NCBI GenBank assembly: GCA_036172245.1
Contig: JAYWIR010000002.1
Span: forward strand, 7,378,001 to 7,442,000
Reading direction: 5' to 3'
Source: Raillietiella orientalis
Taxonomy: Eukaryota
Length of the DNA stretch: 64,000 nt
The position numbers were made by a program, and so were the translations under genes. The notes under the pieces were generated by a model that worked only from the letters and a program-made list of their open reading frames with translations, did no database searches and was not told the origin of the DNA. Each line of letters begins with the position of its first letter. The first letter of the stretch is position 1. Below are positions 24,576 through 57,664 of this stretch, piece by piece.

Positions 24576-26999
24576 CCGACGCCCAATCGTCGGGCCACCC
24601 ACCCAACTTCGCCCCAGAGAGCGCCGTTCCTCCTGGACAAGCGGCGGCGTAGCATCAATTATTCACGGAAGAGGAAGACGCCCTTTAGTTCTGTCCTTTC
24701 GGGGGCCGGCATCCCCAATCGGGGTACGACCGACCGGAGATCCAGCCCGCTCCGCGGAGCGAGACGGTGCTGCGGAGAGCTCCGTCGCCAACACGCCACA
24801 ACGGGAGCGGCCGGTTCCTCGGACCTCGTCACGAGAGGTACTACGGTGTCTCCTCTTCCGCATCATCATCAACTTTCTTGCTGAGAGACAACCTCGCCGG
24901 CGCCCCTAGCGATCTACGGAACGAAAGGCTGTGGGAGGCATGGCGTCTTCGGCAGCCGCGCTCGTCGGGGTATGGCGGACGGCCCCGTCTGCCAACTTCC
25001 ACAGCCTCGAACCCTCGTCCAGCCCTGCCACCGGAGCAGTAGTAAGGCCGGCACCTTGCGCACATTGCAGCTCCCTCGCCGCCGCCAGCGCTGCTACCCG
25101 CAGGGCGGACAGCAGACCGCGGCAACGACTGCCTGCCTATCCCAGAAGCAGCGCCTCTGTCGCTCCGGCTGGACAGACCCCGCCGCCTCCACCTCTTCCC
25201 CTAGTCTCCATCGGCGCGCGACTCTGCCCTAAGCGCGTCCGTGGGCCTCTGAGAACGGGGGAGGAGGGGCAGGCACCGCCGCGAGGCAATGTCCGCTGAT
25301 CTGGGGGGCGCGCGCAAGAAGAGCAATGGAGTCGAAGCCATGAAGAGCGGGCTTCGCTCCCCCATCCATTGCTCCGGTGACCGACGAGAGTGGCTTTTAC
25401 CTGGCGCAGAGGCCCGCGCAAGGCACTGCGCCGCACCGCTCCAACCCTGGTCCGGAACAGCAGCCGCGGGACTTCCGTCGCCTCGCAAAGGTCGCAAGGT
25501 GAGCGGAAGAGGCGAAGTGAGAGTGAACAACGGGAGGGCGCAACGATCAGGGGACTGGGAATGGCAACCCGGGACATTGTGGAGGCTGTGCCTTCTGCGG
25601 GTCCTGCCGTACGGCAAGGCAGCAGCCAAAAGGCACTCAGGAGACCACCAGTCAGGTAGCGGCAGAAAAGTGGACGGAGAAAGGAGGTCCCCTTCAGTTC
25701 GAGGTGTCACCCCTTATCCCCTCCCATGGGCCGCTTCCCTGCGAACTTCCCCCCCGTTCGGGAGCGGACGTTTCGGCGCCACGAGAGCGCCCGTGCCGCT
25801 GCCGCATTGGGAGGGGTCGTCAATCACGGACAGACGGCATCTGGACCCAGCCGAGAGGCAACTTGTCCCGGGAACGAGGAGAGGCCATCGTCCAGAGAGT
25901 CTCCCTGCTCCCTCCATGGCGAGTTGCAACTCCCGATCTTCCAGAACTATGGTCGCGCCTCCCCCGGCCAGCCCAAGGGGACCGCGTAGACCCTCCAGCT
26001 GCAGACGGCAGTCGCTCCGGGGTCCGGTCCGCGTCGTCTCCTGGCAGCCACCATCCCGAGGTTGCATCTGGAACGGACTTTACCTTCTCGTGTCCGCCTA
26101 TCCCAGATTACCCCGGGAAACCACGCTGAGCTGGGATTCGATGCCTACGTCGGTCGCTGCACTTCCGCAGTCGCAGCTTCGTGGTCCTCTTCCCAGTACG
26201 CTGGCGATCGACGACCTTCGCCGACGCGCGAGCGCACACTCGCCATTGCGCGGGCCACTCCTCTCAGAGATCGCTGAGGTCGCCGCAGAGCGCGCCGCGC
26301 GTGAGATTCCCGACAGGCTGCACCGCCGATTTCGAGAACTTCTTCGAAGACCGCAAAACACACTTGCGGACGACGATTTGCGACCCGCGCCCGACGCGCT
26401 CTAGGTCCTTTCCCCTTCCTTCGTCGCCTGGTGACTCATTGACGTCCAATCGCACGCTGGCGCGCCATCGGTCTGTCACCCTGCTGCAGCGGGCTTTCTT
26501 TCCGTCCTTGTCGCCTCGCAACCAGTCTACGCGGCAAGGGCCGAATCTGCTCTTCCGCTTGGTTGCTTATTCGCTCCCGCGCAGCCTCGAGGCCCTCGCG
26601 ACAGATTCCCCTACTCGTCGCCCGCGGCGACCCCACGCCGCGCATCACCAGCGCCGGCCAGCTCGTGGGTCCTGTCATGGGATTGCAGGGAGGGTTCCTC
26701 GGCATCGGTGCGAACTTTGGGCTCCCTGCTGGCCAGGATCGAGCGAGTACCGCGGGAACAGGGGTCCTGTTCTGAAAAGCCCCGAAAGAAGCCGCTTCCT
26801 GCGCAGTCGAAAGCCCTGAGAAGGTGCACCGCGGTCGCCAGGGCACCCGGTTCCCCCGCGCTTCTTCCAGAACCCTTCCCCTTTCGCTACGAGTGTCCAA
26901 CGCAGCCCCTTTGACCATCGCGGGTGGGTCGACCGCAGAAGCCGGTCACACTGCATCCTTTTGGCTGGCAAACACGCGTCTGCTGCGGGCTGATAGATT

Positions 27000-29195: not shown

Positions 29196-30615
29196 CCTGA
29201 TGCAAGCCTGCACGCTTCCCCGTCCAGCAAGCCACCGGCAGCGTGGGGCTCGCGTTCTTCCTTGCGCTCTGTCGCCCCCACAACATCTCCTGCCGCGGCC
29301 CACAGCTTCGGCAGGAGGCTACGCTGAATAAGAATAACAGATATCGTGTCCCCCCTAGCGAGCGGTAGCGTCTGGTTCGAGTAAACCGTACCCTATCCCG
29401 TTCTCCTCTATGCTCCCAGTGCGGAACACTCTAGACAGTAGTCTGTTTGGCGGAGGAGGGCTCCTCCGGGAATTGGATCGACGTGGCGGGATGGCAAATC
29501 CGCTACGAAGGCATAATCTTTTGACATGTCTCTTGTTAACAGCTGATTTTCAAATGGGGATTTCCCAACGAACGCAGTGGAGGTTCTCACCTGGCGCTAC
29601 TCGGAAGTCGCCAGGAGAAAGACGTGACCTTCAAATGCAGAAGCGGATAAAGCGACAGCTCCAGGATGAGAGACTGACCTCGATGACCCTGTTCTGGCTG
29701 TGATGGATCGGCGATTATGCTTTCGCGCCGCCACCGGGGCCGGCAGCCGCCTCCGTCGGATCTCCGCCCTGGGGGCCGCACACTCATGGTTATCAAGCCG
29801 CGCTCCCAAGGATCACGACCCCCAGCGGTGGGAAACAGTGGCAGCGTGGGCAGAGATCGCCCGAGCCCCATCCGATGTACCTGATTGCCCTTCGATTCCC
29901 CGGAAACACCGCCCCAACTGTGGAGACGGAGGGCAGCGACATGTCGCAGCCCTGGGCCAGTCCGATGGCCACTCCCTTCCCTGCAGAGGCGATCTCGAGG
30001 TTCGCGGTGCCTCTCTGAGGGAATCCCGTCGGCGGCAGCTTGTCGGCAAGAAGGGAGAGGCATCCTGCGGGACTCCAAGAGAAATTGTCAGGTAGTTGGA
30101 CCGCTAACCGGCTGACACGGGCGTACGCTGCAACCTACCAAGGACACTCGTCGTAAGGTGAGGCGATCTACGGAAAACTCCGCGAGAACATCCGGTGAGG
30201 CTTCCGGGTGCCCTGCAGCCATCGCACCCCTCCTCCAGTATCGGCGCTTCCTCTGTCGTACCAAGGAGTCCCCTGCGACGCCCGCTGGCACCGCTGGATT
30301 CTGAAGCGGAAAACATGGGAGCCCGCACCGCAGCAGGAGCGGAGAGCGAGGATCCGGCCCTCACCCGCGGCTCCTAAGGGAACCTTTCGCAATTGCTCTT
30401 CAGGTGACGGCGTACGACTCCATGGACGCGTTCCTGTGGCTGTGCTCCCTGCGGGATGCGCCGCTGCCAGCCGCTTCCCGAGGAGCCGCATGAGGCCTCC
30501 GCAAGAATGCGGCGGCCCGGAGCAACGACGCCCGAGAACTGAGACAACATGAAGCGCTCAGTCCAAGAATTCTGCCACCAGTTCCCCCTAGACCCTCTTC
30601 CTTCAGAAGTCGGCA

Positions 30616-31313
30616 TTGCCACTCGGATACGCCAGGACGTTTATTCAAACTCTTCATAACGTCATTACAAAACGTGATACAAGGCCCCACTAACGGCCAA
30701 CATTTCGCAGGACCTGCCGGGACGCCGGGATGCCGATCAGCTGGCTCTCCTCGGCAGTGGAAGGGGATGGGGGAAAAACAAAAAGAGAAATAAAACAAAC
30801 AAAAGAATTTGGAGGGCCGGGAAGGGATCACTGACCACTAAGAGGAGGGTCCATACTTTGCAGGATGCCCTCGAGGTCCTTGTTCATTCCATCCAGCTGG
30901 GGCCATCCGGTAGCTCTCTACAGGAAGCGAACAGCATACGGGATGACGTCCCTCTCGTTGGTGTCTTTATTTTCGGCTTTACTCCAGGCCTCCATAATCC
31001 CACGGATGAGGCCAAGTGCTACTAGGGCTGCGAATGGCTGCAGAGCGTCCCACACGAAGAGAAGGCGCTAAACGTCTCTGGGGTTGCCGCCAACCGGTAT
31101 CCCAAGGGCCGTCCAGAAAAGTTGCCGCAGGGGCCGGAGGGCAGGACAGTCAACTAACAGGTGGGGGAGGGACTCCCGCTCCCCGCACCTGGCACAGTCA
31201 AGGCTTACACTCCCCCTTGTCCAGTGGATGCGGCGGCCGTTGCAAGTAGACCCCAATGCAACAATAGGAGCGCCGACTCCTGCCACTTGAGGGGGAGGAT
31301 CCCGGATTTGGCG
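30616..31313 (-). mobile_element. LINE 3' portion (zinc finger and 3' UTR)
   Basis: CARCGERESLPHLLVDC; AATAAA-hairpin-GGCAA terminus at 30616. Confidence 0.9.
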
Positions 31314-32006
31314 TTGCCACCCGGGTACTCCCTGCGCGTTTATTGAAAACTCTACAAAAACGTGGTACGAGGCCCCACTAACGGCCGCACAACACCGGAC
31401 CTGCCGGGACGCCGGGACGCAGCCCGGCGTGACGCTCCTCGGCAGTGGAGGGGAGTTTGGGAGAAAACAAAAGAAAAAAAAAAATAAAGAAAAACAAAAG
31501 GAGTTTGGAGGGAGGGGAAGGGATCACTGTCCACTAGGAGGAGGGCCCATCCTTCGCAGGATGCCCTCTAGGTCCTTATGCGTTTGTCCCAGATGGGGCC
31601 ATCTCGCAGCTCTTCGCATGAAGCTCACAGCATACGGGATGACTTCCCTCTCGTTGGCATCCACTCCTTCGTCGCGAATGTCGCTCCAGGCCGCCACGAT
31701 GCCCCGGATGCAGCAGAGGGCTGCGAGGGCTGCGGCGGGCTGCAGGGCGTCCCGCACGAAGAGGGGCCGAAGAACGTCTCTGGGCGCGCTGCCCATTGGG
31801 AGCCCGATGGTCGTCCCGAACCGTTCCCACAGGAGTCGGAGGGCAGCACAGTCAACTAGTAGGTGGGAGAGCGATTCCCGCTCCCCACACCTGGCACACT
31901 CAGGCCTTACACTTCCCCGTGTCCAGTGGAAGCGGCGCGCGTTGCAGGGTAGACCCCAGTGCAACAGCAGCAGCGCCGTTTCCTGCCACTTTAGGGGAAG
32001 AAGCCT
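31314..32006 (-). mobile_element. LINE 3' portion with a 10-bp TSD
   Basis: ggatttggcg at 31304-31313 and 32007-32016; zinc finger and 3' UTR present. Confidence 0.9.
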
Positions 32007-34732
32007 GGATTTGGCGGGGGGGGTAGCAACGAAAGGTGCTATCTACAGGCTCGTCGTTACGAAAGGACTCCCAATGTTCGTTGGCCTGGCCGAGTACCGA
32101 GCCTGGGCTGAGCACCAAGCCTGGCAATTAAGGTTGCCTAGCCTGCTGGACGGCCTGGGCCGGGAACATTCGGCCCCGGCTGCGGTAAGGCACCTTGTGA
32201 GTTTTTATTCCTCCCTTTATGCCAGAGCACCTCCGGTACGAGACGACTCGCAGCGCTTGCTCTCGGATGGAGCCTTGGCGATAGGAAAGGAGGAGAGGGA
32301 AAACCTTGATGAGCCTTTCACGACCGGTGAAATTCTCGCCGGTATCCAAAAGCTCAAGAGGCGTAAGGCGCCAGGGGAGGACGGCCTGCCTGTAGAGTTT
32401 TTCCAATGCTTCGCGGCAAAGCCCTGGTGCTCGAGTTGACGAGACTGATCCGAGACGAAGGCGATGTTCCCGCCTCGTTTCGGTCAGCCTGGGTGAGGCT
32501 CCTTCCTAAGGGAGGAGACCTCAGGAAATTGAGCAACTGGCGTCCGATCACGATTGTGAACACGGACGCCAAGTTGTTGGCTAGACTGTGGGCTGCGCGG
32601 CTGGGGCAGGTAGCTGACAGCTTCGTCAGCCCGGAACAGACGTACGCTGTTCCCGGGCGAAGCATGGAAGCGAACCTGTTCTTCGCCAGCACATGGTTCC
32701 ATGTGCAACGCGAATAAAAAAAGAAAAAAGAACGGACTGTCGGCAAATCTGGTTTGGGGGCGCCAGCGCGGCAAGTAAGGGACGACCGGGAAGGGAAGGG
32801 GGCTCTAGCGATCGCAGTCGATCTGCACAAAGCGTTCGATTGCGTGGACCAGGAACTCCTTCTGGAGCTCCTGAATCCCATGGGTTTCCTGGACACCTTA
32901 ACGGCCTACCTGCGCGCCTGCTGGCGCAATGCGATCATCAACGTCTCTTTCAGTGGACAAATAGTGTATGGCGTGCCGGTAAGGCGCGGCATCCGGCAGG
33001 GCGATAGCCTCAGTCCCCAGCTCTTTAGCACCTACTTTGAGTTGGTGCGGAGAGCATACAGGGTGACATTGGCTGCCCTGCCAAGCTCGTGCCCAGGTAC
33101 GCCGGCCGTGTTGACGTATGCTGACGATCTTCTGCTCCTGCTGCCCATGTCCGCCCCAGCTTCGGCAGTCGAGGATTTCTTCGATCTGCTAAGCCGTGGG
33201 ACAGGACTACGAGTGAACAGGACGAAGTCGTCGCTGGTTGCGGTTGGTGCAACGTGGGCAGGACGACCTGATTGGATCCGACTGGGGATCCCCACAGAGA
33301 GGTACTTGAAGTACCTCGGCGTTCCGTTGAGGGACTTCTGCCAGTCAGAAGCCTGGTCAGGTCGTCTCCAGAAAGTGGAGTCGGCGATCGGTCCGTTCCT
33401 GGAAGGCAAGTTTCACTTGCCGAAACGAGCCGCGGTGTGGAACGCGTTCGCGGCTTCCATCCTCCGCCCCCTGCTTTTTGTTTTCCCCATATTCCATACC
33501 TCGCCAGACGTGTGTCCGGGACTGAAGGACTTGCGTCGTACCTTCTGTGCCCCGGCCGGAAGGTCAGAAGATGCGGCCTTCTCCTGGGACGCATGGCCAC
33601 CCTGGCAAAGGAGAACGGGTGGGTGGCCTGCAGCCCCGCCAACTCCAGCGCATGGCTGGAGGAATCCGTTGCGACGTGGGCGAAGTTGAATAACCCAGGA
33701 GCAGAAAATTGGAACCGCCTGCGATTCGGCCCCAACGCCTGCTGCACACTGCGGACCACTTTGGAGTGTCCCGCGAGGAGCACGTGGGCGGAGACCACCC
33801 CTTTGGCATCGACGCTGCCCTTCCTTCGGAGGGCCCTAATCAGCGGCCGGAAGCCGAAGTGGCAAGTCTCCTGCCGTATCGCAGGAAGAGAGAGGAAGAT
33901 GAGCGGGTGGACCATGGGAGAACTGGCAGACGCCACGACCCCGAGTGCCCTCCCGCGTGGACTTCTGAGATGGGGAGAGCTGCTCGGCATCCCGACGGAT
34001 GACCTGAAGTGGCCCCCAGTATTAATCGGATCCAGGCTTCTCCCCCTGAAGTGGCAAGAGTCGGCGCTGCTGCTGTTGCACTGGGGTTTACCCTGCAACG
34101 CGCTCCGCTTCCACTGGACGCGGGGAAGTGTAAGGCCTGAGTGTGCCAGGTGTGGGGAGCGGGAATCGCTCCCCCACCTACTTGTCGACTGTGCTGCCCT
34201 CCGACCCCTCTGGGAACGGTTTGGGACGACCCTCGGGCTCCCGGTGGGCAGCCAACCCAGAGACGTTCTCCGTCTTCTCTTCGTGCGGGACGCCCTGCAG
34301 CCAGCTGCAGCCGTTGCAGCACTCTGCTGCATCCGAGGCATCGTGGCAGCTTGGAGCGATACCCGCGACGGAGGAGTGGATGCCAACGAGAGGGACGTCA
34401 TCCCGTATGCGGTCTGCTTCATGCGGAGAGCTACAGGATGGACCCAGCAGGATACAATGCAGATGGACCTCGAGGGAATCCTGCGAAGGATGGACCCTCC
34501 TCCCAGTGGACTGTGATCCCTTCCCTTCCCTCCAAACTCTTTTTGTTTTTTTCTTTGTTTTTATTTTTATTTTTTGTTTTCTCCCCCATCCCCCTCCGCT
34601 GCCGAGGAGCGTCACGCCGGGCTGCGTCCCGGCGTCCCGGCAGGTCCGGTGTTGTGTGGCCGTTAGTGGGGCCTTATACCACCTTTTTTAGAGTGTTTTA
34701 AAATAAAAGTCCTGGGCATACCCGGGTGGAAA

Positions 34733-35148
34733 CCCAAACTCCCGCAGGTAGGCGGTGCAGGGGGAACTGGCCGCAGAACTCCTGGACCGACCGCTTGAAG
34801 CAGTACCGATCCAGAAGCGTCCGCATCCTGTAGCTCCGTATGAACGCTCGAAGATGTTCCGCCGCGTCCGGGAGCTTCAGCCAGTTCCCAGGCAGACGCC
34901 ATGCTGACGAGGGGGAGGGGCCCTGTCGCGCGAATGAATCTGGAGCACGATCGGGAGATGGTCGGACAGCTCCGACAATAACTTGCCGCGCCTGCCCGCA
35001 AGGGAGCATAGGTGCTGGTCAAGAACACGTGGTCGATGACGTCCCCAATTCCCGGTTCACTGTTCAACAAGTTACATCGGTGCTCACACGTCGTTGTCCA
35101 GATCACGTTCATGATTCGGCCCATCTGGTTGCAGGTGAACGTTAATAC
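34733..35148 (-). mobile_element. LINE endonuclease C-terminal fragment
   Basis: NVHL...IDHVFLT...KRSVQEFCGQFPL, homologous to 48300-48696. Confidence 0.75.
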
Positions 35149-38950: not shown

Positions 38951-38959
38951 CCCTGTGCA

Positions 38960-39405
38960 AAAGCGGGGAGGGCATGGGATGCTGAGGTTCAAGGACTTGT
39001 CCAGAAAGGGTGGCTATCACGTTGTACTTGGTGGCGCTCGTGTCCTCGCAGCAACGTTCCAGGTTCCGCAGTGGGGTATGCGATCGGGTGTGCAATTGGG
39101 GGAATTTGCCTGAGAATTGATGTGGATGGGTTGCGTCCTACTCTGCAGCGACGAAATGATTGGCATCGATGTCGCGCTGGCGATTGCCGATCCTTGGGTG
39201 TGGTGCGAAGCAGGAATGACGTGAGGGAGAATATCGGTTTTTGATGGTGCTTCCCTTTGTACGGTTGGTGGGGTTTCTCCATGGGCGCATCGGGATGGTA
39301 CGTACTGCGTGTGCCGAATGTTGGTGTGGTGCTGTCGGAAAAGGTTTGGATAGGGATGGTGGGGATGTTGGTTGGTTATCGCACTGTGTTGCTGATTTCG
39401 GACTT
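38960..39405. repeat. Near-identical duplicate of 52225-52670 (unidentified G/T-skewed element)
   Basis: Direct sequence match with few substitutions. Confidence 0.92.
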
Positions 39406-39479
39406 TGAGGCTTTGGCTGGCTCGTCTCTTTCGCAGCACTGGGCGGTCTCACTCTGGGCGTGTGTCTGATGAAGCCTCC

Positions 39480-39600
39480 TGCAATGAACAGGCACTGCCC
39501 ATTCTTCACTACATGGAAGGGCGGAGGATGTAAAGTTCGCCGATTTTTAGTGACGCAAACAGTAGAAAAACGGCTCCCAGATACACTTTAGTGGTTTGCA
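39480..39600 (+). pseudogene. Possible Rep SF3-helicase C-terminal remnant
   Basis: MNRHCPFFTTWKGGGCKVRRFLVTQ resembles DRYP...KGG...IITSN (motifs B'/C); weak. Confidence 0.4.
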
Positions 39601-39789
39601 CCTAGCCAGTCTCAACCTAAAACTTACGCTTCCCAGTAATGCGGTTTGCGGTCATCGCAGGGGTCAGCCTTTGGTGCAACGACCGAGCATTACTCTGGAG
39701 GACTCGGTCGTGATCAGGATCTCGAAACCAAAGTTGAGGGACCAGAAGCTACGGGAGAATGCTTCACAATACGAAATCGAAAATGCCTT

Positions 39790-40732
39790 TTTTTGTCTAA
39801 AACCTGCATTACGACTCATGGCGAAGCTTATACTGAGTGTCCGAAATGGACAGTAGGAATCCTCGACTATCGAATCCATCGTACACGCAAAATAGTAAAC
39901 CGCGTGCACAACCCATGATTCCATTTCGTCATTCCCACCTCGTTTCTAATTTGTGCGATTTGAGGCCACCGATCGGATGTTGGTGAAATGATGAACAGTA
40001 CCGTGAATTACGTTTACTGAGGCATACATTCGGGCTGTCGATTTAGCACCAGTCAGATGCAGCAATTCGTGCTCAATATTTGGTTCACATACACACATAC
40101 AGTCCTGTTCTTACATTTGCGAAACACAGGAGATCTGTTTTGCTGCCAAGTCAGCTGATTCCACATTCCTTCAGAATCACCGTTTTTCACAATCCTAAAA
40201 TCTTCCTCCTGTCCGGCAGTTGTCGCAACAACAAAATTATTCGAAATATATAGTCTCCAGCTATTTCGGAATTCAACACATTCGACTCCTTTTGATCAGA
40301 AAAAGTATCCGTAAGAGGTTCCAAAGATATCCTCACACCGTACAACTTTACATACTCAAACAGTCTCGACATTCCACTCAGATTCCAAAATCCAAGCAAC
40401 GTACTCGTGGTGCGCTTATGGAAATCGGTATGATACACAAAGCAACCGACATAATAACCTTCACCACCAACAAGCCTCAACTCTTGACGAACAGTAGAAG
40501 CACGCTTCGTAAGATGACAATCCCTAAACCGAATACGCGCACCAGAACGCAACACCTTCCCAATCCAGGAGGAAGCACGTCCAAAATTGCCACGATCTTT
40601 AACACGCCTCCTCAGAGAATTACGCTTACGATGATTACCACGAGAATGCAATGCACGACGTCTACGACGCTGTTTACGTAAAGAAACATTCCTAAGATCA
40701 GCACGATGAGGTGTACGTGTCGCAACAGGCAT
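39790..40732 (-). pseudogene. cap: CRESS virus capsid protein (open to 40187, frameshifted beyond)
   Basis: Arg-rich N-terminus (RKQRRRRRALHSRGNHRKRNSLRRR), core LFEYVKLYGVRISLEP, downstream pieces RTVCVYV and GLLF...YKLR...CRF. Confidence 0.75.
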
Positions 40733-40922
40733 CCTCACACCGCAACCTCTTGTATCCTCATGCATTCCAAAATGAAGGGAACAAAGAGAATACGAACCCC
40801 CTGACCCTCACATTCCGCTAATTTGACACCGACTAGGCAAAAACCACTTAAAAAGTGCAGAGGATGACCCTGAACTCGGCAAACCGTATCAAACCAAAAC
40901 ACACACACCAAAAGGTTGCAAC

Positions 40923-41445
40923 ATGCCGTACGCAAAGTGCACGCTGCGGTGCTTCACCCCAAACAACTGGATAACCGCAGAAGAAACACAGGAAAGGTCA
41001 CTTCGAAAAGGAAAGCACGGAATGCTCGGAAAAAAAGCAAGCTCCACAGCAACCCCGCATCTCCAGGGATGCTTCCAAACAGCAATACCCTCCACGATAC
41101 CTCAGCTAAAAGGAATCCAACGTTTCTCAAGAGCTGCCGTGCAAACCTCCAAACGAAATCCTCAACGCCAAAAGACCGCCATGCGAAAGGGGCCCACCGA
41201 GAAACGAAAAACCTCCTACTACACAAGATCAAGAACATCCATTGCAAGCACGAGTGAACACGGTTCATTTCAGATCATCGCATACGGAAAAGAGGGAAAA
41301 AAGAAAAATCGTTCTGCGAAAACGAACCACAACCATTCGAAAAACAGAAAGCCTTCAACATCGGCGGTATAAGACTCGGAAAATCGTACTCTCCAAACAA
41401 TCCAACGATCCTCAACGCATTACAACCATGGCAAACCTCTACCCC
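40923..41445 (+). pseudogene. rep: CRESS virus Rep, HUH endonuclease domain (degenerate, truncated by a LINE)
   Basis: RCR motif I CFTPNN, motif II TPHLQG, QLKGIQRFSRAAVQ, probable motif III YYTR, EHG. Confidence 0.85.
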
Positions 41446-41449
41446 TTGA

Positions 41450-42576
41450 AACCTCTCTACCGGCTCCTGGCAGCCCACGCATGGATCTCCTGCCGCCCAA
41501 CGAACTTTGACTCCTGGCGGCAGGAACCGTTGCATGCCTGGGCAAATAACAGGATGTTTCGCTCTTGGAACTCCGTTGCGCCAACCTCTCCCCGTACTGC
41601 AAAGTGGATGACGTCTGGAACAGCTGGAGAAGTGGATTCGCCTGGCCGTCACACCCCTCGCCGACGCGCTGTCAGCCCTCAGGGCAAGTGACGACAGCTG
41701 CGAACCGGCGAGATGGGAGGTCGCCTGCACCATCGCAGGAACAACACGACCCATTGGCGGCTGGAGGAATTGCGAGCTGGCGGACGCCGCCACGCCTCGC
41801 CACGTTCCGAAGGGACTCCTTCGATGGAGTGAACACTTGAGTGTGCCCCCCGAAGAACTTGTGGTCCCTCCCTCCTGTTTGAACACTTCTGTGTTCCCCC
41901 TTTCGTGGAAGCAGGACGTGATCATGCTGGTGCATTGGGGGTTTCACTCCAACCAGCGCACGAACCGTGTTTCCGGGGGAGTTGTCTCCCCAAACTGCAA
42001 GCGGTGCGGGGAAGTGGAAACGCTCCCGCACATGCTCCTGGACTGCGGTGCCCTTCTAGGACTTTGGCGGAGGCTGGCCTCAGCTCTCCTGCACCAGGGG
42101 AACACCGCGAGGGACTTGATGCGTCGCTTCTTCACGCCAGGCGGCCTGTCTTTAGGTGCTGTCATCGCAACGGTCTGTTGCACCCGCGCCATCGACAAGG
42201 CCCACCGAGAGCTGGAGAAGCTGGCGATTCGTTCTCAGGCCACCGGAATAGCCGGCGTGAGCATGGCGTCGGCTGCCGAGTGGGCCCATCTGCCAGTGGA
42301 CGTTAGGAGCGATATCACCGGCATCCATCGCCGGTTTTGAAAGGAAGGAACGGCGTTACCAAAGACCCCTGTCCCCTGCCCTCCATATTTTCATTTTTAT
42401 ATATATATTTTTTTAAAGTAGTGTATATGTGGTCCCCTCCCTCCCGTTCCGGACTTTCGGCATACCGACCTGCGTGTCGGGGATCCCACCCCCTTCGTCT
42501 CTTGTTTTTCCTTTGTCCAGGAACTCTGTTCCCGGATAGTTTCTTAATAAACGCCCCGGCGCACCCGGGTGATAAA
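41450..42576 (+). mobile_element. LINE 3' portion
   Basis: HAWISCRPTN...CKRCGEVETLPHMLLDC; aataaacgccccggcgcacccgggtgataaa terminus. Confidence 0.9.
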
Positions 42577-44439
42577 CAGCCAAACCGTCACATCGGAAGG
42601 CATTCAGCCAACAGCACACCAAATAAAAAAAACAACAGGCTGATGGCCGTGGCCATCACATGACAACCACGCATTGCGAAAGGCTCGAAGCCAGCCACCG
42701 AAACAACCAGGTTGCAGAGACAACACAAAAAAAAACATCACAAACAATTTGGCAAGCAATCCAAACAAAAACCAGCAAACACGAGAACCAAAAGAAAACA
42801 AATCCAAATGCATGATAACCGCGGGGATAACACCAAACCCGCAAAAGACTCAGGTGAAAAAAAAAAAAACAAAATAAATCACCCTCAAAAAAAGCACTGC
42901 ATGTTGTGTTTAGACACGAAGACAAAAGAACATCCAAAACCAAATCAACCAAACCAATCAATCAAAACCAAAGAAAGAAGTCACCCACGACAAAACAGGG
43001 ACTCCACCAGAACAAACCACCGTCCAGTCAAAACAAAAAGTCCAGTTGAAAGCAACAAAAACAAAAAGCAAGGCAGCTGAGCATTTCAAAGCACCAGAAA
43101 AAGAAGGCAGGCACCCACAACGACCGCCTCCCCTTGGCACAGAAGGTATGAGCCAAGATGAACGGCCCTAGACGAGCACATTGCCCGCAAACGAGGCGGC
43201 CCACAGAAGACGGGCAGAATCAACGGGACAACTTCATCATCCCGACACACTGTCAGTCGCGCTGCAACCGTTTCAATGGCAAACGTGAAGAGAACCAGGA
43301 ATCAAACAGGAGACAAGGAAAGTAAGCCCTCGAAAACGAAGACGCGTCTTCGTTTTCGGGCTACAGACGGAAAAAGGAAAAGCTGCTCTTAGAGCAACAG
43401 GCCCGCTCGGCAGTAGCGAGCGCTGAGCTCAGGAGGACCTCCGGAAGGGGCGTGCCGGGGGGAAGAACGCCTCAACCATGAAGAGGAGCGCCACTCTGGC
43501 AGTGGCATGTGCCGATGATGGACGAGGGATCAAGCAGCGCATCCAGAAACTGTGGATTCCAATGCAGTGTAGTTGAGCGTACTGACATCAGAAACCTGTT
43601 CACTTGGCCCGCCAAGTGCAACTCGGGAGGTGGGAAAAGGGAGAATAGGGCGTCACGGTTCCGCGACCAGGAGCTTCCTCGGGGGGAAGGGTGGCTCCCG
43701 GGGCGATCGTAGTGGCTGCGAGAAGGTCGTAGCGAACTTCCTATGAAAGTTGGATGGCAAACGGAAGCGACTTTTCAAGGGAAACGTGTGAAACACAAAG
43801 ACAAACTTGGCAAGCGGAGAGCCCGCTGACCAGGGCGCCCCACGGACGACCGGCGGAATCTCCGGGGCAACCCGACCTTCTGGTCCGACTTCCGGATTCG
43901 TTGCAACGCCTGCAGTGGCACGCTTGAAGAGAATTAGGAATCGAATGGAAGGCAATGGAAAGATCTTCCCCGGTGGACGGGGCGGGTTTTTCGTTGTGGG
44001 CTGCCAAGAGGAGAAACGGATAGGTTGCAGGGAAAGGGTTGGCCCGCCAGTGGGAAGGGAGCGCTTTTGTTGTGGAAGGATGAGGAAGCGCTGCGATGTC
44101 CTGCGGTCAGTTTTGCGTCTGCGCACTGCATGAAGGAGTGCAGTGGAAGCAAAAGTCTACGTTGTCCTAAGGATGCAAAGGGTGAACCAAAATTCCTGGG
44201 TGGGTTCCCCATCAAAAAAAGGATTAAAAAAAAAGGTGGGGATTTCTGTTTTCGTTGAGTTTTTTTTTCTTTGCGCTATTTTTTTGACGTTTCTTTTTTC
44301 TCGGTTTTTTTTCTTTTCTTTTTTCTTCTTTTTTTTCTTTTCTTTTTTTTTCGTTTCTTTTCTTTTTTTTTCTTTTCGTTTTTATTTCCCTTTCATTTCT
44401 TTTTTTTCTTTTTTTTCTTTTTTGCTTAGAAATTCAGTG

Positions 44440-49760: not shown

Positions 49761-52700
49761 ATCTCGCCGCGTGTCTTCGGGCAACGCAGTGCGTGCAGCG
49801 ACGTACAGCTCCAAAGCGACAGCGACCCTCGGCGCTGGTTGCTTATTTACCGGGGCTGTTTCGCGCGTTCGGGCTGCTCGCCTGCCTACGATTCTTTGCC
49901 TGAGTGGCGGTCTCGAGCAAATCCGGTGGCCGGAATCTTCCACTGCCTTGCTTGTCCGCTTTCGGAATGGGCGCTGCACACTGGCTGCTGCGTTTCCGTT
50001 CCAGGAAGCGGGAAACCGCGTCTAACCGTACACCGCCCAGTGTGAATTCCGAGGCGGAACACTTCAAGTCCTCCGTCGCACGCGTAACCATTCCTGTGTG
50101 AAGAGAAGCGCGCGCAGTTTCCATCCGCCACCGGGATTGTGGGCGCACTTGGGGGCAGGAGGCACCGTCGCAGCTGGAGTCTTTCGGTTGCTCTTCCTGG
50201 TTTGCATCTGACTGCCTTCCTCGTGCGGGATTCGCGTCCCGTGCACTTTTATGTTCTGCCAATTCGTTGCGTGCAGGTGGCTTCCTGGGCGGGATGCCCG
50301 CAGCGACGCGCATCTCTAGCAGTGCTCGTCACTTACTGGACCTCTGCTGCACGAACCCGCATTTCTTCCGATGTTTTCGCTTTCGTGCACACAGTGTTCG
50401 CCATGTTGCCTTTTGCTACACGCGAGCTTTTCGAACCGTGCCCTCACCTCCGTTTGCGGATATGTAGCGGGAATCGGGATGCTGGCAGCAAAGAAAGCAT
50501 GTGCAGGAAGCGTTCAGGGAACCGCGCAACCGCTCCCATGCGTGCGGAGGTCAGGCGTGTTTTCGACGCCGGCTGAGCGAACGAAAATGCGAAACGTATG
50601 ACGTGCGAGATGCGACAGGCGTCATCACGTCCTGCAACCCATCGACGTTCCGAGATTAGAATATTCCGTTTAACGCCTCTTAGCGAGTAACGTGCCTTTC
50701 GAACCATCTTGGAAATCGTTTGAATGCTCGGTGGTCGTGTTCCTGAATGCTGCGTCTCGTCCTTTCCTCTCTCCTCATTCTGAGATGCACTTTCCCTGCA
50801 ATCTGCTCTGCGATCCGAGTGGCTAGCATCCATCGTTCTACCTTCCGAAGACACTGAATGCAGAACTCGCTTGGGATGGTGGCGTATTGCGCCACGTTCG
50901 AGGCAGGGAGTTGCGCTCTTTGCCTCATCCGTTTTCCTCAGTGCTGTCAGATGGTGGGCGACCTCGAAAGCATTCCGTGCTTGCCTGGGCGCTCGCTGGA
51001 AACCGTCGCGTTTCCCCGGGCGCTTCCTTTGCCAGAAATCGGGAAACTGGCTTCCGGATGCCGTCGACCGGACGATCGTGCCACGGAAGCCAGAACGCAC
51101 CGCCGCAGCTGCCAACGACGTCCGCTTGCCTGCGATTCGAACGAAACTGTGCAATTTCTTGCTTGCTGTACTACGCACTCAATCCCGCCACCGTGCCCCG
51201 GAATGGCACGATTCGCATTCGAAGGGTTAGCGCACAGAGGTTTTTCTAGCATGTGTTGATGACAGGGGTATCAGCTGCAAGCTGCTCATGCCTGCTGTCG
51301 TTTCTTCTGCTGTTCGACGACGAAGAAAACACTCACCTCCGCGGCTCCCGCGTACTTGGAAGTGTGGAACCTCTGATCGGGAGAGGGTACTTTGTTCCCG
51401 AAGTGAGCGCACGTGGACTCCCGGTGCGAGCAGTCCAGCTGCCGTAGACTTGCGGACTTGTGTGCTCTCCTTGCGTCGCATTCGGGTGACCGCCGCGTGT
51501 CTGGCGTGCACGCAAGTTTCACGCTCCATCCGTGGCTACGGATGAGAGGCAGAGGCCCCATCGGAAAGAGAACCCTTGCGTTGGGAGCATGAGAACGTCC
51601 CAACTCTGCTGCTCACCACTGAGAAAGTAGCTGTGGGAGTCGTGGGGCGTGTGCCGTGACCGCTGGTTAACCAAAGGATTTGTTGGCTTCCTGCGAACGT
51701 GGCTACAGTAGCGGATGCTCAGCCTGGAATGGTCGGATGGGAGGTGGAAATTGCAATGATGCGCGGCGAGGAATGGGCGATGGCGAGTTGAAGAAGGCTG
51801 GAGAGACGCACGCTGTGTGCTTTCCATCCGTACCTGTTTCGAGTCCGGAAGTATCCTTCGTGTCGTATTTGTTGCTCCTTCAGGGCATATGAGGTGAACC
51901 AAGAGGCACGTTTGTTTGTGGTGGCAACGATCGCGCTGGTGGTGAGCAGGCTGGTGAGCGTTATTTTCCGATGGAATCCTTTCTTCTTGTTTCGTGATTG
52001 CTTGCATTGCGAGTGAGCGCTGTGTACCGCGGGACAGTCGTGTTGGTATTTCGATCGCGCTGACGGGTGCTGCGTGGTCGGTCGGGAAGGGTTCCCGGAT
52101 TCCATGTTGATGCTGCTGGGCAGCTGCACTGTCGCCGTTGACGAGGAGTACGAGGTTGTGGCTTCACAAGTTTCTCGCTGCTGGAAAGGATGGCGGCGCA
52201 TGTGACACTGTGAGTTGCGGTTGCTAAAGCAGGTAGGGCGTGGGATGCTGCATCTCAAGGAGTTGTCCAGCTAGGGTGGCTATCACGTTGTACTTGGTGT
52301 CGCTCGTGTCCTCGCAGCAACGTTCCAGGTTCCGCAGTGGGGTATGCGATCGGGTGTGCAATTGGGGGAATTTGCCTGAGAATTGATGTGGATGGGTTGC
52401 GTCCTACTCTGCAGCGACGAAATGATTGGCATCGATGTCGCGCTGGCGATTGCCGATCCTTGGGTGTGGTGCGAAGCAGGAATGACGTGAGGGAGAATAT
52501 CGGTTTTTGATGGTGCTTCCCTTTGCACGGTTGGTGGGGTTTCTCCATGGGCGCGTCGGGATGGTACGTACTGCGTGTGCCGAATGTTGGTGTGGTGCTG
52601 TCGGAAAAGGTTTGGATAGGGATGGTGGGGATGTTGGTTGGTTATCGCACTGTGTTGCTGATTTCGGACTTTTTCGTGATTGCTGACTCGGCATGGTTGT

Positions 52701-54049: not shown

Positions 54050-54400
54050 GCGAGTATCCGACTTTCCAGATCTTTTTTTTTTTCAAGGAGTTGACGAGGA
54101 GAAGAGAGGAATTTTGAGGCGAGGGGTGGATTTTCCACAAAAGGAAAAACGTTTGAAGGGGTTCGACCAAAATTGGGGGAACTCTTAGACGAACTCCCTT
54201 GCCGGACGCTTGCGAGGTTTCCCCAGAGCTTTGCAAAGACCGCAAGATCTCTTCTTTCAGTTTGGGAAGAGGACCACAAGCCCGGTTCGATTGGATGCTT
54301 GGATAAATGCAGTGCTGAAAGGATGGGAAAAAAGGGCTTGGAGCATTTCAGGAGCAAGCAGTTGCATTGCAATCGGAGGAAGCAATTTGTGGAAAGCGAA
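54050..54400 (+). mobile_element. Mariner (Mos1-like) transposase remnant
   Basis: LGELLDELPCRTLARFPQSF...RRKQF resembles L..LLDED..QT..LA...RK.FL. Confidence 0.5.
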
Positions 54401-54404
54401 AATC

Positions 54405-54845
54405 CTCATTTATAGGTATCCTCCCAATAAAAATAATAAAAACATTGAAATTTGCAACAATCACATTGATTATCTCAGAAATTTTCTTATTCGTTTCCTT
54501 CTTTGGATCATTCTTCCATTCCAGACCAACAGTCAATCTACAATTTCGATTTTCCTGACCTCCACCCAATCTTGCCCTACCCTACACCACAGAAGTTGGC
54601 ACCATACTTGGCACCATTCTCCGGCTAAGATCAGTTATCTCAGTTACATGAACACATCACTCTCTCTCAAAAAGAAACGATTCCCTCTCATTTTTATCCC
54701 TACTTGTTACTATCACAAGTGGATTCATATTCCTTACAACTCAAGCCATAGAATACTTCATACTCGAATTCTCTATTACAGATTCAATTTTCCGTTCAAC
54801 ATTCTTCATCGCAACAGGATTCCACGGTTTGCACGGTTTGCATCT
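54405..54845 (+). pseudogene. cox3: cytochrome c oxidase subunit 3 fragment (NUMT)
   Basis: ISEIFLFVSFF.SFFH, WPP, EYF, STFFIATGFHGLH. Confidence 0.92.
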
Positions 54846-55310
54846 CATTCCACCCCACATCTCCATCAACAACCACCCAATCCCCATCAATAAAATTCCA
54901 TCTCCAATACGATTACTCAAAAAAGAAATCATTCCTCCATAATTAGAACCGCAATTCATAGAAAAAATAACCAAACAATAAGAAATAATATCCAACCCAT
55001 CCCAACCCAAAATAACAGTCACTAACCTGCCGCTCATAATCAACAGAAATATTCTCACTACAAACCAAAATACTCCAATAGAAAATCACTTCTTCTTCCA
55101 CTCAATATATTCCCAACTATACATCATAACCAAAAAAGAAATAACCATCACATGCCTCATAAGAAAGAAACACTTATCGTACAAAACAAACAACAAACCT
55201 CATTCCATTCCTCCCAACCTTATCAATGATCACTCTATTAACACCACCCTACTTCAACAAACAAAGCACAAACCCACATTTACAACTATCATCCTCACCC
55301 ACACCACCAT
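54846..55310 (-). pseudogene. nad5: NADH dehydrogenase subunit 5, N-terminal part (NUMT)
   Basis: LGWDGL.IISYCLVI, SNRIGD. Confidence 0.92.
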
Positions 55311-55311
55311 G

Positions 55312-55367
55312 TAATTCAAATTAATTGCGATACCACAAATCGTTATTCTCATTAAACTATCTTGACA
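55312..55367 (-). tRNA. trnH: mt tRNA-His (GUG) pseudogene lacking a T-arm (NUMT)
   Basis: gtcaagatagtttaatgagaataacgatttGTGgtatcgcaattaatttgaat, lying between nad5 and nad4. Confidence 0.7.
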
Positions 55368-55369
55368 TC

Positions 55370-56340
55370 AATACAAAAGCATCATGATCCGAACTACCCT
55401 AGCTACTACACTCATTACAACAACATCAAAATCTTTCATCGTCAACACAAACCCTGCATCCACCGCTATCCTTCCATGACCACATTTACTATTCCTACAT
55501 GTACTGTACTTTCACCAAACAACCCCAATCTTAAAGGACACGACATATTTAAAAAACACAAAATCATAATTAATCCCCGCTACAACTTCATCTCATTCCA
55601 CCCCTCGAATACATTGACCGTCTCCCTAATAATTCAAACATTAAACCACTAATAAAAAAGAAACCAGACGGCACATAACCCTGAGCCACCATCATCAAAA
55701 CACATCCCATCAATCCCATCTCCCCCCTACAATAACCCTTATATGACAAATCGATGAATAAGCCACAATTACCTTATAATCTACCTGTCGAAAGCACATC
55801 AGTCCCCCCACACACACCACCTACCATACTTACCCCTACTAATCATAACCGTACAACTGCATAATGATACTTCCTAAACAACCGTACCATCCCATACCCC
55901 CCCCCCCCCCCCAAACTTCAACATAACCCCAGCAAGGATTATAGAACCATAAGAAATACACTCTACATGAGCTTTTGCAAGTCATAAATGAACTCCATAA
56001 ACTGCAACTTTACAACAATCAACACCATAGGGGTCATCCTACCCTCAAAAAATAGATCAAATATAACAAAATTAACCCTCATAAATCGATAAATCACGAA
56101 TATACCCAAAATCAGTCTCATTCCCCTCAATATCCCCCTCCTGCACTCCCCTGCGTCACCCAAAAAAATAACACCACTGTCATCAATAACAAACAATATC
56201 TCACTCCATCAACGATATAGCGCCTCCACCTAAACATTGCTCCTTACATAAACATCCCATTACCCACAAAAACACAACTCCCCAACACACCCTTCCCCAG
56301 CCACAACCCACACCCATCGCCATAAATAACATAAACATCA
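55370..56340 (-). pseudogene. nad4: NADH dehydrogenase subunit 4 with internal deletions (NUMT)
   Basis: FFE...P, KAHVE, AFDR.VDYK and AHG-like segments. Confidence 0.85.
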
Positions 56341-56540
56341 CAATCCCTAACGTCCAATAATATTAATAGATTGACGATAATCATTACCAAACCACCGCCT
56401 AGCAAGAACAATCCAACATAACCCTATAGCCCCCTCGCAAATACAAAGTGCCATCATAATTAAAATTTCACATCCACTACCGCTTACACGCATTTCTACC
56501 AAAAAAAAAAATAACCCAAACAACCCAACATTATCATTTC
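56340..56540 (-). pseudogene. nad4L: NADH dehydrogenase subunit 4L (NUMT)
   Basis: LCICEGAMG motif. Confidence 0.7.
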
Positions 56541-56699
56541 CAACCTTAAAAGTCCCCTTACAATATGCCGCTTTTATTTAGAAAAAATCTTCATAAACCC
56601 AATCAAAATACAATGACTATACCCATCTCTACTACTGAATCAGTCCTGGATATATCTCCCAACAAATCTCCAGATTAAACCATCATCTACACACCCCTT

Positions 56700-57115
56700 G
56701 CATACTCATAATTACAACCACATCTCTCCTTTACTGTTCACATACCAACCCAATAATCATAGCTCTCTTCCTAGCCATAACTTCACTAACCATTTCCATC
56801 ACCATCAACCTCCTTTCCATAACATCACGACACGCCGTCATCATATTCCTCGACTACGCCGGAGGAATCCTAACCATCTTTTCTGACATAACATCTCTAA
56901 CATAGAACGAATTACCTTAATTCAATTAGACCCCATTATTACTGCTCTTACCCAATTCACCTCAACCCACTTCCCCCTCTTCACCCCACTCATCAAAAAT
57001 CGTACTATCACTACCCAACATTCCAATAACCTGATTCCTCGTATCCTACCTAATACTAACATTAATCATTATCCCATACATAATTTTGCAAACTGAAACA
57101 CCCCTCCGCTCCCTT
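56700..57115 (+). pseudogene. nad6: NADH dehydrogenase subunit 6 (NUMT)
   Basis: YAGGILTIF...ITSL; position immediately before cob. Confidence 0.7.
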
Positions 57116-57120
57116 CTTTC

Positions 57121-57664
57121 ATGACAAACCCAAACAAAAAAATGAACCACACAATGAACATACGCATACCATCAAACGTTTCCTACTCTTGAAACCTGGG
57201 CTCCATAATAGGAATCTTTCTAATTACCCAACTGTTTACAGGCATCATCATTTCTATACATTACACCCCCATACCTCATCAATCATCAACATGATGCACA
57301 ACACCAACAACGGATGACTCGTACGATACGTCCACGCCCACACCGCCTCCTTCTTTCTCATAGCAATCTGCCCACACACTTTCCGCGCATTAAACTCCTT
57401 TTCCTACAAAAACACTGCAACCTGAATATAGGGATTACTTCTACTCATTTTACTAATAGTAACATCGTTTCCTAGGTTATGTCCTTCCTTGAGGACAAAT
57501 ATCTTTTTGAGCCGCTACAGTTATCACCAACCTATTTTCCACCATCCCTCTCATCGGACAACGCATCATCTCATTTTTATGAGGATATTTCTTCGATTCT
57601 TTTCCCTACACTTCATCTTACCCTTCGTCATAATACCCATCTCTCTATCACGCCTATTTTTCCT
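57121..57664 (+). pseudogene. cob: cytochrome b, N-terminal half with deletions (NUMT)
   Basis: [52 protein letters not shown]. Confidence 0.95.

What the first reader, a model, noticed from the sequence alone, without database searches (positions are those of the whole stretch)
39470..41450. Near-complete, circularly permuted CRESS-DNA virus genome (Rep and Cap) integrated in a LINE nest
Seen: Rep starts at 40923 (+) with CFTPNN and TPHLQG. An Arg-rich ORF starts divergently at 40732 (-) with LFEYVKLYGVRISLEP and continues in shifted frames to ~39790. A + strand remnant at ~39480-39600 resembles the Rep helicase B'/C motifs. Established: these are RCR motifs I/II, and the ambisense layout and ~2 kb size are those of circovirus/cyclovirus-like viruses. 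Inference: the order [Rep C-term][Cap][intergenic][Rep N-term] is what a circular genome opened inside rep would give, with Walker A/B lost at the break. Endogenous CRESS elements are mostly rep-only, so a linked cap could tie an undescribed virus lineage to this host.
Basis: partly seen in the sequence, partly recalled or inferred. Interest (0 to 1): 0.82.

Follow-up and report, generated by a model that had tools for sequence, protein, structure and literature searches.

The report
Decayed circovirus-like virus fragment in animal DNA
A roughly 1.4 kb remnant of a small circular single-stranded DNA virus, carrying the front part of its replication gene and most of its coat gene back to back, sits among jumping-gene debris in an animal genome; such viral fossils are a known kind, but ones that keep the coat gene are less common.

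Summary
A + strand ORF (40923-41372) holds FTPNN and TPHLQG. These are the only FT.NN and HLQG in all six frames of the window. They lie 30 residues apart in one ORF, 190 nt from a divergent Arg-rich ORF (40732-40190, - strand).

- **Rep:** a profile built from 46 environmental CRESS Rep proteins ranks this ORF first of 1805 (E=1.3e-7). Nearly all of that score comes from the two motifs. The catalytic Tyr of motif III is missing.
- **Cap:** the ORF has no sequence relative anywhere I searched. It does show strong codon periodicity (T at 54% of third positions, p=1e-8), and its nearest protein-language-model clusters are Cressdnaviricota capsids (0.94).
- **Helicase remnant (39409-39588):** it scores no better than random ORFs, and 39407-40052 lacks the element's A/C skew. 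"Near-complete, circularly permuted" is therefore not supported.

Best reading: a partial, decayed endogenous CRESS-DNA virus element of about 40053-41462, cut by a 5'-truncated LINE. It is a new member of a known kind. The junctions could not be checked with reads.

The parts
38956..39406 (.). Left flank: G/T-rich repeat copy, 97% identical to 52222-52672. The homology ends exactly at 39406.
39407..40052 (.). Unique stretch of unknown origin, with balanced base composition. Nothing I tested shows it to be viral.
   Evidence: The helicase profile gives -2.2 bits, E=320. The Smith-Waterman test is at chance level. tblastx best E is 0.15 against 124 CRESS loci and 0.66 against the window. A+C is 0.51.
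40053..40295 (-). Cap-like gene, second frame: an 80-codon ORF ending at stop 40053-40055. It is reached from the first frame by a frameshift somewhere in 40190-40295.
   Evidence: The third-position G/T enrichment moves into this frame (0.67-0.73 between 40237 and 40103) and then fades. ORF list.
40187..40732 (-). Cap-like gene, first frame: Met at 40732, Arg-rich arm (17 Arg in the first 60 residues, 17 of 31 Arg codons are CGT), 181 codons, stop at 40187-40189.
   Evidence: Codon-position chi-square 48.4, p=9.7e-9; third position T 0.54, G 0.28. ESM Atlas nearest clusters are Cressdnaviricota, at 0.94/0.92/0.91. No sequence hit.
40733..40922 (.). Spacer between the divergent gene starts, where a replication origin would be expected. 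No convincing stem-loop or nonanucleotide was recognised.
   Evidence: DNA fold z=-1.35; 20 of 200 shuffles fold as well. Inverted repeats are only short.
40923..41372 (+). Rep-like gene, first frame: motif I CFTPNN (40950-40967) and motif II TPHLQG (41052-41069). The motif III position reads KTAMRKG (41172-41192) with no Tyr. Stop at 41370-41372.
   Evidence: Custom Rep profile E=1.3e-7, 28.0 bits, rank 1 of 1805. With motif II masked it scores 5.4 bits. Motif counts. No codon periodicity (chi-square 6.15, p=0.41).
41258..41449 (+). Rep-like gene, second frame after a frameshift: Walker A-like P-loop GGIRLGKS at 41363-41386, stop at 41447-41449.
   Evidence: This is one of 5 G....GK[ST] matches in six frames of the window. 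It lies 294 nt downstream of HLQG on the same strand. Third-position A/C enrichment moves into this frame at about 41283-41417. The profile score alone is not significant (0.1 bits, E=41).
41463..42578 (+). Right flank: 5'-truncated LINE ORF2 3' fragment that ends the Rep-like sequence. It is followed by an A/C-rich low-complexity tail at 42580-43120.
   Evidence: 71% identity to 62811-61739, whose copy continues upstream of the junction point. Weak zf-RVT hit, E=0.029. Sequence.

Best explanation
About 1.4 kb (roughly 40053-41462) is a non-functional endogenous remnant of a CRESS-DNA, circovirus-like virus captured in an animal chromosome.

It keeps the virus's divergent gene pair around the spacer where an origin would lie:
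- a cap gene of about 226 codons on the - strand, with one frameshift;
- the first 180 or so codons of rep on the + strand. These carry endonuclease motifs I and II and a P-loop. They have one frameshift, and the catalytic Tyr is lost.

Rep is cut off between Walker A and Walker B where a 5'-truncated LINE copy begins. No helicase remainder is detectable anywhere in the window.

The strand-wide A/C excess on the rep-sense strand, seen as NNT codons in cap, is inferred to be the C-to-T bias of a single-stranded virion strand that carried cap in sense.

Shown: the motifs, their order and spacing, the coding periodicity, and the borders. Inferred: viral origin of cap, capture as DNA at a break, and non-function.
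For: - **Motif pair:** FT.NN and HLQG each occur once in 127,996 six-frame residues. They share one ORF and lie 30 residues apart.
- **Rep profile:** a profile from 46 full-length Rep ORFs ranks this ORF first of 1805, at E=1.3e-7, with the next best at E=1.2. The 46 were chosen by length from 113 Rep ORFs found in 124 fetched viral contigs. The alignment also covers the stretch up to the motif III position.
- **P-loop:** a Walker A pattern lies 294 nt downstream on the same strand. The codon-phase signal shifts into its frame.
- **Divergent ORF:** it has an Arg-rich arm and strong codon periodicity (chi-square 48.4, p=9.7e-9), with T at 0.54 of third positions. Cardinale and Duffy report an NNT preference in coat genes of ssDNA phages (PMC3278643, abstract read).
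- **ESM Atlas:** for the cap ORF the three nearest clusters are Cressdnaviricota (0.94, 0.92, 0.91; 195, 188 and 181 shared features). One of them carries Circo_capsid on 29% of its members. For the rep ORF the listed neighbours are Cressdnaviricota Rep clusters, apart from one Cnidaria cluster with no Pfam family, and they score only 0.76-0.78.
- **Borders:** the block is unique within the window, with sharp repeat borders.
- **Decay:** the Rep ORF composition lies outside 98 real Reps. K/N/T/Q/H/P make up 0.43 against 0.285 +/- 0.039 (maximum 0.36), and it has no Asp.
- **Local context:** a mitochondrial insertion 13 kb away shows that this locus captures foreign DNA.
Against: - Pfam gives no Viral_Rep, helicase or capsid family at E<=1 for any of 12 ORFs of the region.
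- PDB phmmer gives nothing at E<=10 for either ORF.
- The Rep profile score collapses from 28.0 to 5.4 bits (E about 1) when TPHLQG is masked, and leaves the list when CFTPNN is masked too. The profile was built from sequences chosen for that very motif.
- The motif III Tyr is absent.
- The cap ORF has no relative at E<=0.001 among 1.84 billion representatives. It has none in the word-index search and none in IMG/VR.
- It does not match 9 cap-cluster profiles. It scores below shuffles against 65 Arg/Lys-rich candidate caps (36 against 40.7 +/- 4.5; 90 of 100 shuffles reach it).
- The Atlas recognition value of 2180 is under the tool's 2300 mark.
- The A+C skew of 0.66 is far outside 40 real ambisense CRESS genomes (0.497 +/- 0.028, maximum 0.59). 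A plain viral origin of the skew is therefore not established.
- Other A/C-rich stretches exist in the window.
- No origin stem-loop was found.
Confidence: 0.72

Rival explanations
1. The whole unique block 39407-41462 (2056 bp) is one near-complete circular genome opened inside rep. Under this reading 39409-39700 is the Rep helicase C-terminus and cap runs on to about 39790.
For: The unique block is 2056 bp, within the 1.8-2.1 kb quoted for circoviruses (PMC6069186, passages read). Both of its ends abut repeats. By eye, ORF 39409-39588 holds a KGG and a VT at plausible spacing. Rep breaks off about 25 codons after the P-loop, so a C-terminal piece is indeed missing on the right.
Against: The helicase-only profile gives the ORF -2.2 bits, E=320 of 1805. 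Its best Smith-Waterman score against 35 helicase parts is 38, against 32.4 +/- 4.1 for shuffles. That score is reached by 23 of 200 shuffles and by 40 of 317 window ORFs of 50-70 aa. The stretch has no strand skew, with a change point at 40321 and 2*dLL = 44. It has no clear codon phase below about 40100. tblastx against 124 CRESS loci gives a best E of 0.15. A cap ending at the stop 40053-40055 would already be about 226 codons long.
Confidence: 0.15
2. Chance. The region is A/C-rich non-coding or retroelement-derived DNA. Its translation is rich in Thr, Pro, His, Gln, Asn and Lys and happens to spell two Rep motifs, next to an unrelated Arg-rich ORF.
For: The profile evidence rests almost wholly on two short motifs. 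The Rep ORF shows no codon periodicity (chi-square 6.15, p=0.41). A/C-rich low-complexity DNA lies nearby at 42580-43120. Curated families give no hit.
Against: Each motif is unique in the window, and both sit in one ORF at the family's spacing. A P-loop follows on the same strand. The divergent ORF is clearly a coding sequence (p=9.7e-9), with capsid-like neighbours in the Atlas. My own rough estimate, an inference and not a tool result, is well under one chance co-occurrence of TPHLQG with FT.NN in frame, even over many gigabases.
Confidence: 0.06
3. Assembly artefact. Reads of a free or contaminating CRESS virus, or of a defective genome, were joined to host repeats by the assembler.
For: The junctions lie at repeat borders, where assemblers err. 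No sequencing run could be obtained to test them.
Against: The element is broken in ways a replicating virus could not tolerate. There are frameshifts in both genes, no catalytic Tyr, no helicase beyond the P-loop, and a Rep composition outside 98 real Reps. The right border is a typical 5'-truncated LINE copy.
Confidence: 0.04

Closest known systems
Endogenous circoviral / CRESS elements (CVe) in animal genomes (Dennis et al. 2018, PMC6069186; Katzourakis and Gifford 2010, PMC2987831; passages read)
   Same: A fragment of a Rep-encoding ssDNA virus sits in host DNA, is decayed by frameshifts, and lies in repeat-rich sequence.
   Different: Those surveys report mostly rep-only elements. Dennis et al. 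write that all their newly found sequences derive from rep. Katzourakis and Gifford state that cap is absent from the carnivore elements. Here a cap-like gene is linked to rep. Unlike those elements, this one is too divergent for any standard similarity search.
Whole CRESS virus genomes integrated in Entamoeba and Giardia (Kinsella et al. 2020, PMC7493932; passages and one section heading read)
   Same: CRESS sequence beyond rep is integrated, and this is used to tie a virus lineage to a host.
   Different: Those hosts are protists and exogenous relatives were in hand. Here the host is an animal (a DEG/ENaC exon at 24078-24662). No exogenous relative was found, and only part of the genome is demonstrably present.
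Circoviridae, above all the cyclovirus-like layout (genome description from PMC6069186; the strand on which the origin lies in cycloviruses is recalled, not checked)
   Same: Ambisense rep and cap diverge from a short spacer. Cap has an Arg-rich N-terminus and is about 226 codons long. Rep has motifs I and II followed by a P-loop.
   Different: No Pfam Circo_capsid or Viral_Rep hit and no nonanucleotide stem-loop. The strand skew is far stronger than in 40 sampled CRESS genomes. Family placement was not tested by a tree.
NNT codon bias of coat genes in ssDNA phages (Cardinale and Duffy 2011, PMC3278643; abstract read)
   Same: The cap ORF ends 54% of its codons in T, while first and second positions are balanced.
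   Different: That work concerns phages. Here the complementary bias also fills all three codon positions of rep, which that model alone does not explain.

Membership tests
CRESS-DNA virus Rep (HUH endonuclease + SF3 helicase) | Motif I (FTxNN type) | tested here: met
   CFTPNN at 40950-40967 is the only FT.NN in six frames of the window. It aligns to the profile's motif I.
CRESS-DNA virus Rep (HUH endonuclease + SF3 helicase) | Motif II (HxQ; HLQG type) | tested here: met
   TPHLQG at 41052-41069 holds the only HLQG in six frames.
CRESS-DNA virus Rep (HUH endonuclease + SF3 helicase) | Motif III (YxxK, catalytic Tyr) | tested here: not met
   The aligned position reads AMRK, within KTAMRKG at 41172-41192, and has no Tyr.
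CRESS-DNA virus Rep (HUH endonuclease + SF3 helicase) | Walker A P-loop | tested here: inconclusive
   GGIRLGKS at 41363-41386 fits GxxxxGK[ST] in a shifted frame. The pattern has 5 matches in the window. The profile score of that ORF is 0.1 bits, E=41.
CRESS-DNA virus Rep (HUH endonuclease + SF3 helicase) | Walker B, motif C, Arg finger | tested here: not met
   The helicase-only profile has a best window hit of E=0.72, at an unrelated place. ORF 39409-39588 scores -2.2 bits. The Smith-Waterman test is at chance level.
CRESS-DNA virus Rep (HUH endonuclease + SF3 helicase) | Significant match to a curated family profile (Pfam Viral_Rep and relatives) | tested here: not met
   No family at E<=1. 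Only a custom, motif-selected profile matches (E=1.3e-7; 5.4 bits with motif II masked).
CRESS-DNA virus genome | Origin stem-loop with a conserved nonanucleotide in the spacer | tested here: inconclusive
   The fold of 40733-40922 has z=-1.35, and 20 of 200 shuffles fold as well. I recognised no nonamer by eye, and decay could have erased one.
Circovirus-type capsid protein | Arg-rich N-terminal arm | tested here: met
   17 Arg and 4 Lys in the first 60 residues.
Circovirus-type capsid protein | Sequence match to a capsid family (Pfam Circo_capsid or other) | tested here: not met
   No Pfam family at E<=1. No hit in PDB or in 1.84 billion representatives. No hit to 9 cap-cluster profiles or in the pairwise test against 65 candidate caps. 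The only lead is from the Atlas: a cluster at 0.92 in which 29% of members carry Circo_capsid.
Circovirus-type capsid protein | Single jelly-roll fold | tested here: inconclusive
   The single-sequence AlphaFold2 model has mean pLDDT 47.6. A Foldseek search of BFVD gave 0 matches at E<=0.001 and a top TM-score of 0.28.
Endogenous viral element | Viral sequence contiguous with host DNA on both sides, confirmed by reads | not testable with these tools
   It is contiguous in the assembly. No host genome is held.

The most novel reading that the evidence does not exclude
The element is the fossil of an unsampled animal CRESS-DNA virus lineage whose capsid has no detectable sequence relative among 1.84 billion protein clusters. 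Its cap gene stayed under purifying selection, and may have been co-opted by the host, while rep beside it decayed under a strong strand-biased mutation pressure. The contrast between the two genes is what suggests this. Cap carries the bias only at third codon positions. Rep carries it at all three, with an amino-acid make-up outside 98 real Reps.
Probability: 0.12. Interest if true: 0.65.

Novelty: new member of a known kind. Interest (0 to 1): 0.4.

Why it matters
Most CRESS-DNA viruses are known only from metagenomes and have no host assigned. An integrated copy that keeps both rep and cap ties a lineage to an animal host. It also gives a cap sequence that similarity searches could never have found alone.

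Surveys of animal genomes report mainly rep-only elements (PMC6069186, PMC2987831). A linked cap is therefore of some value to paleovirology.

The unequal decay of the two genes and the extreme strand skew are unexplained. They could inform on how ssDNA-virus mutation bias, or a host editing process, shapes such fossils.

The kind of element is well known and the evidence here is indirect, so the interest is moderate.

Tried and rejected
**Searches that found nothing**
- Pfam on 12 ORFs of the region: only AFP_2 (E=0.19), zf-RVT (E=0.029) and DUF2688 (E=0.13), none viral.
- PDB phmmer at E<=10 for both ORFs: 0 hits.
- The search for homologous proteins: cap ORF with near lengths, 0 hits at E<=0.1 among 132 candidates. 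Rep ORF with longer lengths, 0 hits at E<=1 among 128 candidates. Near and shorter lengths for rep were not searched.
- The search for related loci in viral contigs with each ORF: 15 pattern matches each, none confirmed.
- phmmer of the cap ORF against 1.84 billion representatives: 0 hits at E<=0.001.
- A regex for the cap motif found 0 of 512 ORFs.
- Smith-Waterman of the cap core and of the second cap frame against 65 candidate caps: below shuffles.
- tblastx of 39407-40052 against the CRESS loci and against the window: noise only.
- The search of earlier findings: nothing in three look-ups.

**Models and read data**
- AlphaFold2 on the cap ORF alone: mean pLDDT 47.6, unusable. The Foldseek search of BFVD with that model is meaningless, with a top TM-score of 0.28.
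- No whole genome is held for this window.
- The look-up of sequencing runs: none was listed and no RNA holder was listed. Read laying was therefore not used and the junctions are untested.

**Ideas considered and dropped**
- Mitochondrial origin of the A/C-rich block. There are no tRNAs and no Rfam match at E<=0.1 in 38000-58500. Neither ORF hits Pfam when read with code 5.
- A burst of editing before integration as the cause of the skew. Cap's first and second codon positions are untouched.
- An RNA-mediated LINE chimera. The block holds cap in antisense to rep, which a rep transcript would not carry. This is inference.
- An attempt to learn the host group from the DEG/ENaC exon found nothing.

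Supplementary files of the papers were not opened.
Full report
**What is in the sequence.**
- ORF 40923-41372 (+) starts MPYAKCTLRCFTPNN. It carries CFTPNN at 40950-40967 and TPHLQG at 41052-41069.
- ORF 40732-40190 (-) starts 190 nt away on the other strand. It has 17 Arg and 4 Lys in its first 60 residues, and LFEYVKLYGVRISLEP at 40363-40316.
- The window is eukaryotic. No genome is held for it.
- Of 145 ORFs of 130 aa or more, I sent 143 to Pfam. The two left out were the Rep and Cap ORFs, already searched. The hits were RVT_1 (32718-33686), two zf-RVT fragments and a DEG/ENaC (ASC) exon at 24078-24662.

**Borders.** A self-comparison shows that 39407-41462 is unique in the window.
- On the left, 38956-39406 is a 97% copy of 52222-52672. 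The homology stops dead at 39406.
- On the right, 41463-42578 is 71% identical to 62811-61739. That copy runs on upstream of the junction point, so the LINE copy here is 5'-truncated. At 71% identity the junction is uncertain by some 10-15 nt.

**Is it Rep?** Curated resources say nothing.
- Pfam gave no family at E<=1. PDB gave none at E<=10. Neither the word-index search nor IMG/VR gave a hit.
- I therefore fetched 124 IMG/VR loci with a back-translated Rep motif. From them I extracted 113 Rep ORFs and built a profile from the 46 that were 250-340 aa long.
- Against all 1805 six-frame ORFs of the window, the candidate ranks first, at E=1.3e-7 and 28.0 bits. The next best is E=1.2.
- That profile was built from sequences selected for motif II. 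With TPHLQG masked the score is 5.4 bits (E about 1). With CFTPNN masked too, the ORF drops out of the list.
- The profile evidence is therefore the two motifs plus a faint remainder.
- Independent of the profile, FT.NN and HLQG each occur exactly once in 127,996 six-frame residues. They fall in this one ORF, 30 residues apart.
- The motif III position reads AMRK, without the catalytic Tyr.
- One of the window's five G....GK[ST] patterns, GGIRLGKS, lies 294 nt downstream of HLQG in a shifted frame (41363-41386). The third-position A/C enrichment moves into exactly that frame at about 41283-41417.
- ESM Atlas neighbours of the ORF are Cressdnaviricota Rep clusters, apart from one Cnidaria cluster with no Pfam family. 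They score only 0.76-0.78, which the tool rates as a lead.

**Is it Cap?** No sequence method finds a relative.
- All of these were blank: Pfam, PDB, the word-index search, IMG/VR and phmmer against 1.84 billion representatives. So were nine cap-cluster profiles from the fetched contigs.
- A Smith-Waterman test against 65 Arg/Lys-rich candidate caps scored below shuffles. The score was 36 against 40.7 +/- 4.5, and 90 of 100 shuffles reached it.
- A single-sequence AlphaFold2 model is unusable, with pLDDT 47.6. The Foldseek search made with it is meaningless.
- Three things speak for a capsid gene.
  1. It is plainly a coding sequence. In 40322-40732 the third codon position is T 0.54, G 0.28, A 0.11 and C 0.07, while positions 1 and 2 are balanced. 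The chi-square is 48.4, p=9.7e-9. Of its 31 Arg codons, 17 are CGT. A preference for NNT codons in coat genes is what Cardinale and Duffy report for ssDNA phages (PMC3278643, abstract).
  2. It has the Arg-rich arm and the divergent position next to rep.
  3. Its three nearest Atlas clusters are Cressdnaviricota, at 0.94, 0.92 and 0.91. One of them carries Circo_capsid on 29% of its members. However, the recognition value of 2180 is under the tool's mark.
- The phase signal moves into the frame of ORF 40295-40053 and fades below about 40100. This suggests one frameshift within 40190-40295 and an end at the stop 40053-40055.

**The permutation claim.** It is not supported.
- A helicase-only profile gives ORF 39409-39588 a score of -2.2 bits (E=320 of 1805). 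It finds nothing significant anywhere in the window; the best hit is E=0.72, elsewhere.
- Pairwise against 35 helicase parts, the ORF's best score is 38. That is reached by 23 of 200 shuffles and by 40 of 317 window ORFs of like length.
- The A+C content of the + strand changes at about 40321, from 0.51 on the left to 0.66 on the right (2*dLL 44).
- The stretch 39407-40052 shares neither the skew nor a codon phase, and it matches nothing.
- Only the block's total length of 2056 bp speaks for a whole genome. I give that reading 0.15.

**An unexplained feature.** The rep-sense strand of 40321-41462 is A/C-rich across both genes and the spacer.
- This is far beyond 40 real ambisense CRESS genomes, which average 0.497 +/- 0.028 with a maximum of 0.59.
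- In cap the bias sits at third positions only. In rep it fills all three, with no periodicity (chi-square 6.15, p=0.41). Only 1 of 61 real Reps is that low, and their median is 22.6.
- Rep's amino-acid make-up lies outside 98 real Reps, and it has no Asp.
- One reading is a virion-strand C-to-T and A-to-G bias, filtered by selection in cap but not in rep. This is inference.
- The motifs that survive are built mostly of A/C codons, which such a bias would spare. That too is inference.

**Comparison with what is known.**
- Endogenous circovirus-like elements are well documented in animals, and surveys report mostly rep-only elements (PMC6069186, PMC2987831; passages read).
- Whole CRESS genomes integrated in protists have been described (PMC7493932, passages).
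- Two further literature searches gave listings only. I did not find, and did not exhaustively look for, reports of this particular element.
- It is a new member of a known kind.

**What remains open.** The junctions could not be tested, the host genome could not be searched for other copies, and family placement by a tree was not attempted.

Noticed in passing
window 54400-57400 (+): A nuclear insertion of mitochondrial DNA. ORF 54307-54939, read with code 5, hits COX3 (E=3.1e-33). ORF 56515-57360 hits Cytochrome_B (E=1.5e-7). The strand is extremely G-poor, with G at 0.069. No tRNA and no Rfam hit was found. COX3 and cytochrome b lie only about 2.4 kb apart, so the gene order or content between them is unusual or deleted.
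   Followed up: partly
window 24078-24662 (-): An exon-like ORF with the N-terminal part of the amiloride-sensitive sodium channel (DEG/ENaC) family, Pfam ASC E=1.7e-12. It is the only host-gene signal seen in the window. A homologue search with it found nothing.
   Followed up: partly
window 38956-39406 and 52222-52672: A 451-bp G/T-rich segment is present twice at 97% identity. The second copy runs on G/T-rich to about 52850, while the first is cut at 39406. The element type is unknown.
   Followed up: partly
window 42580-43120 (+) and 44290-44423: An A/C-rich low-complexity stretch follows the 3' end of the LINE fragment. A T-rich tandem array of period 5/25 lies at 44290-44423.
   Followed up: no
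window 30552-34796, 58661-59912 and others: Several diverged copies (65-87% identity) of LINE-like repeats lie in both orientations. They include an RVT_1 ORF at 32718-33686 and zf-RVT fragments at 59064-59678 and 31527-32042. This is a true nest of retroelement fragments.
   Followed up: no
L026, L033, L039 (fetched IMG/VR loci): A few of the fetched contigs carry isolate-style identifiers and lengths of 1740-2037 bp, so they may be classified circoviruses. They were used only as members of the Rep set, not examined singly.
   Followed up: no
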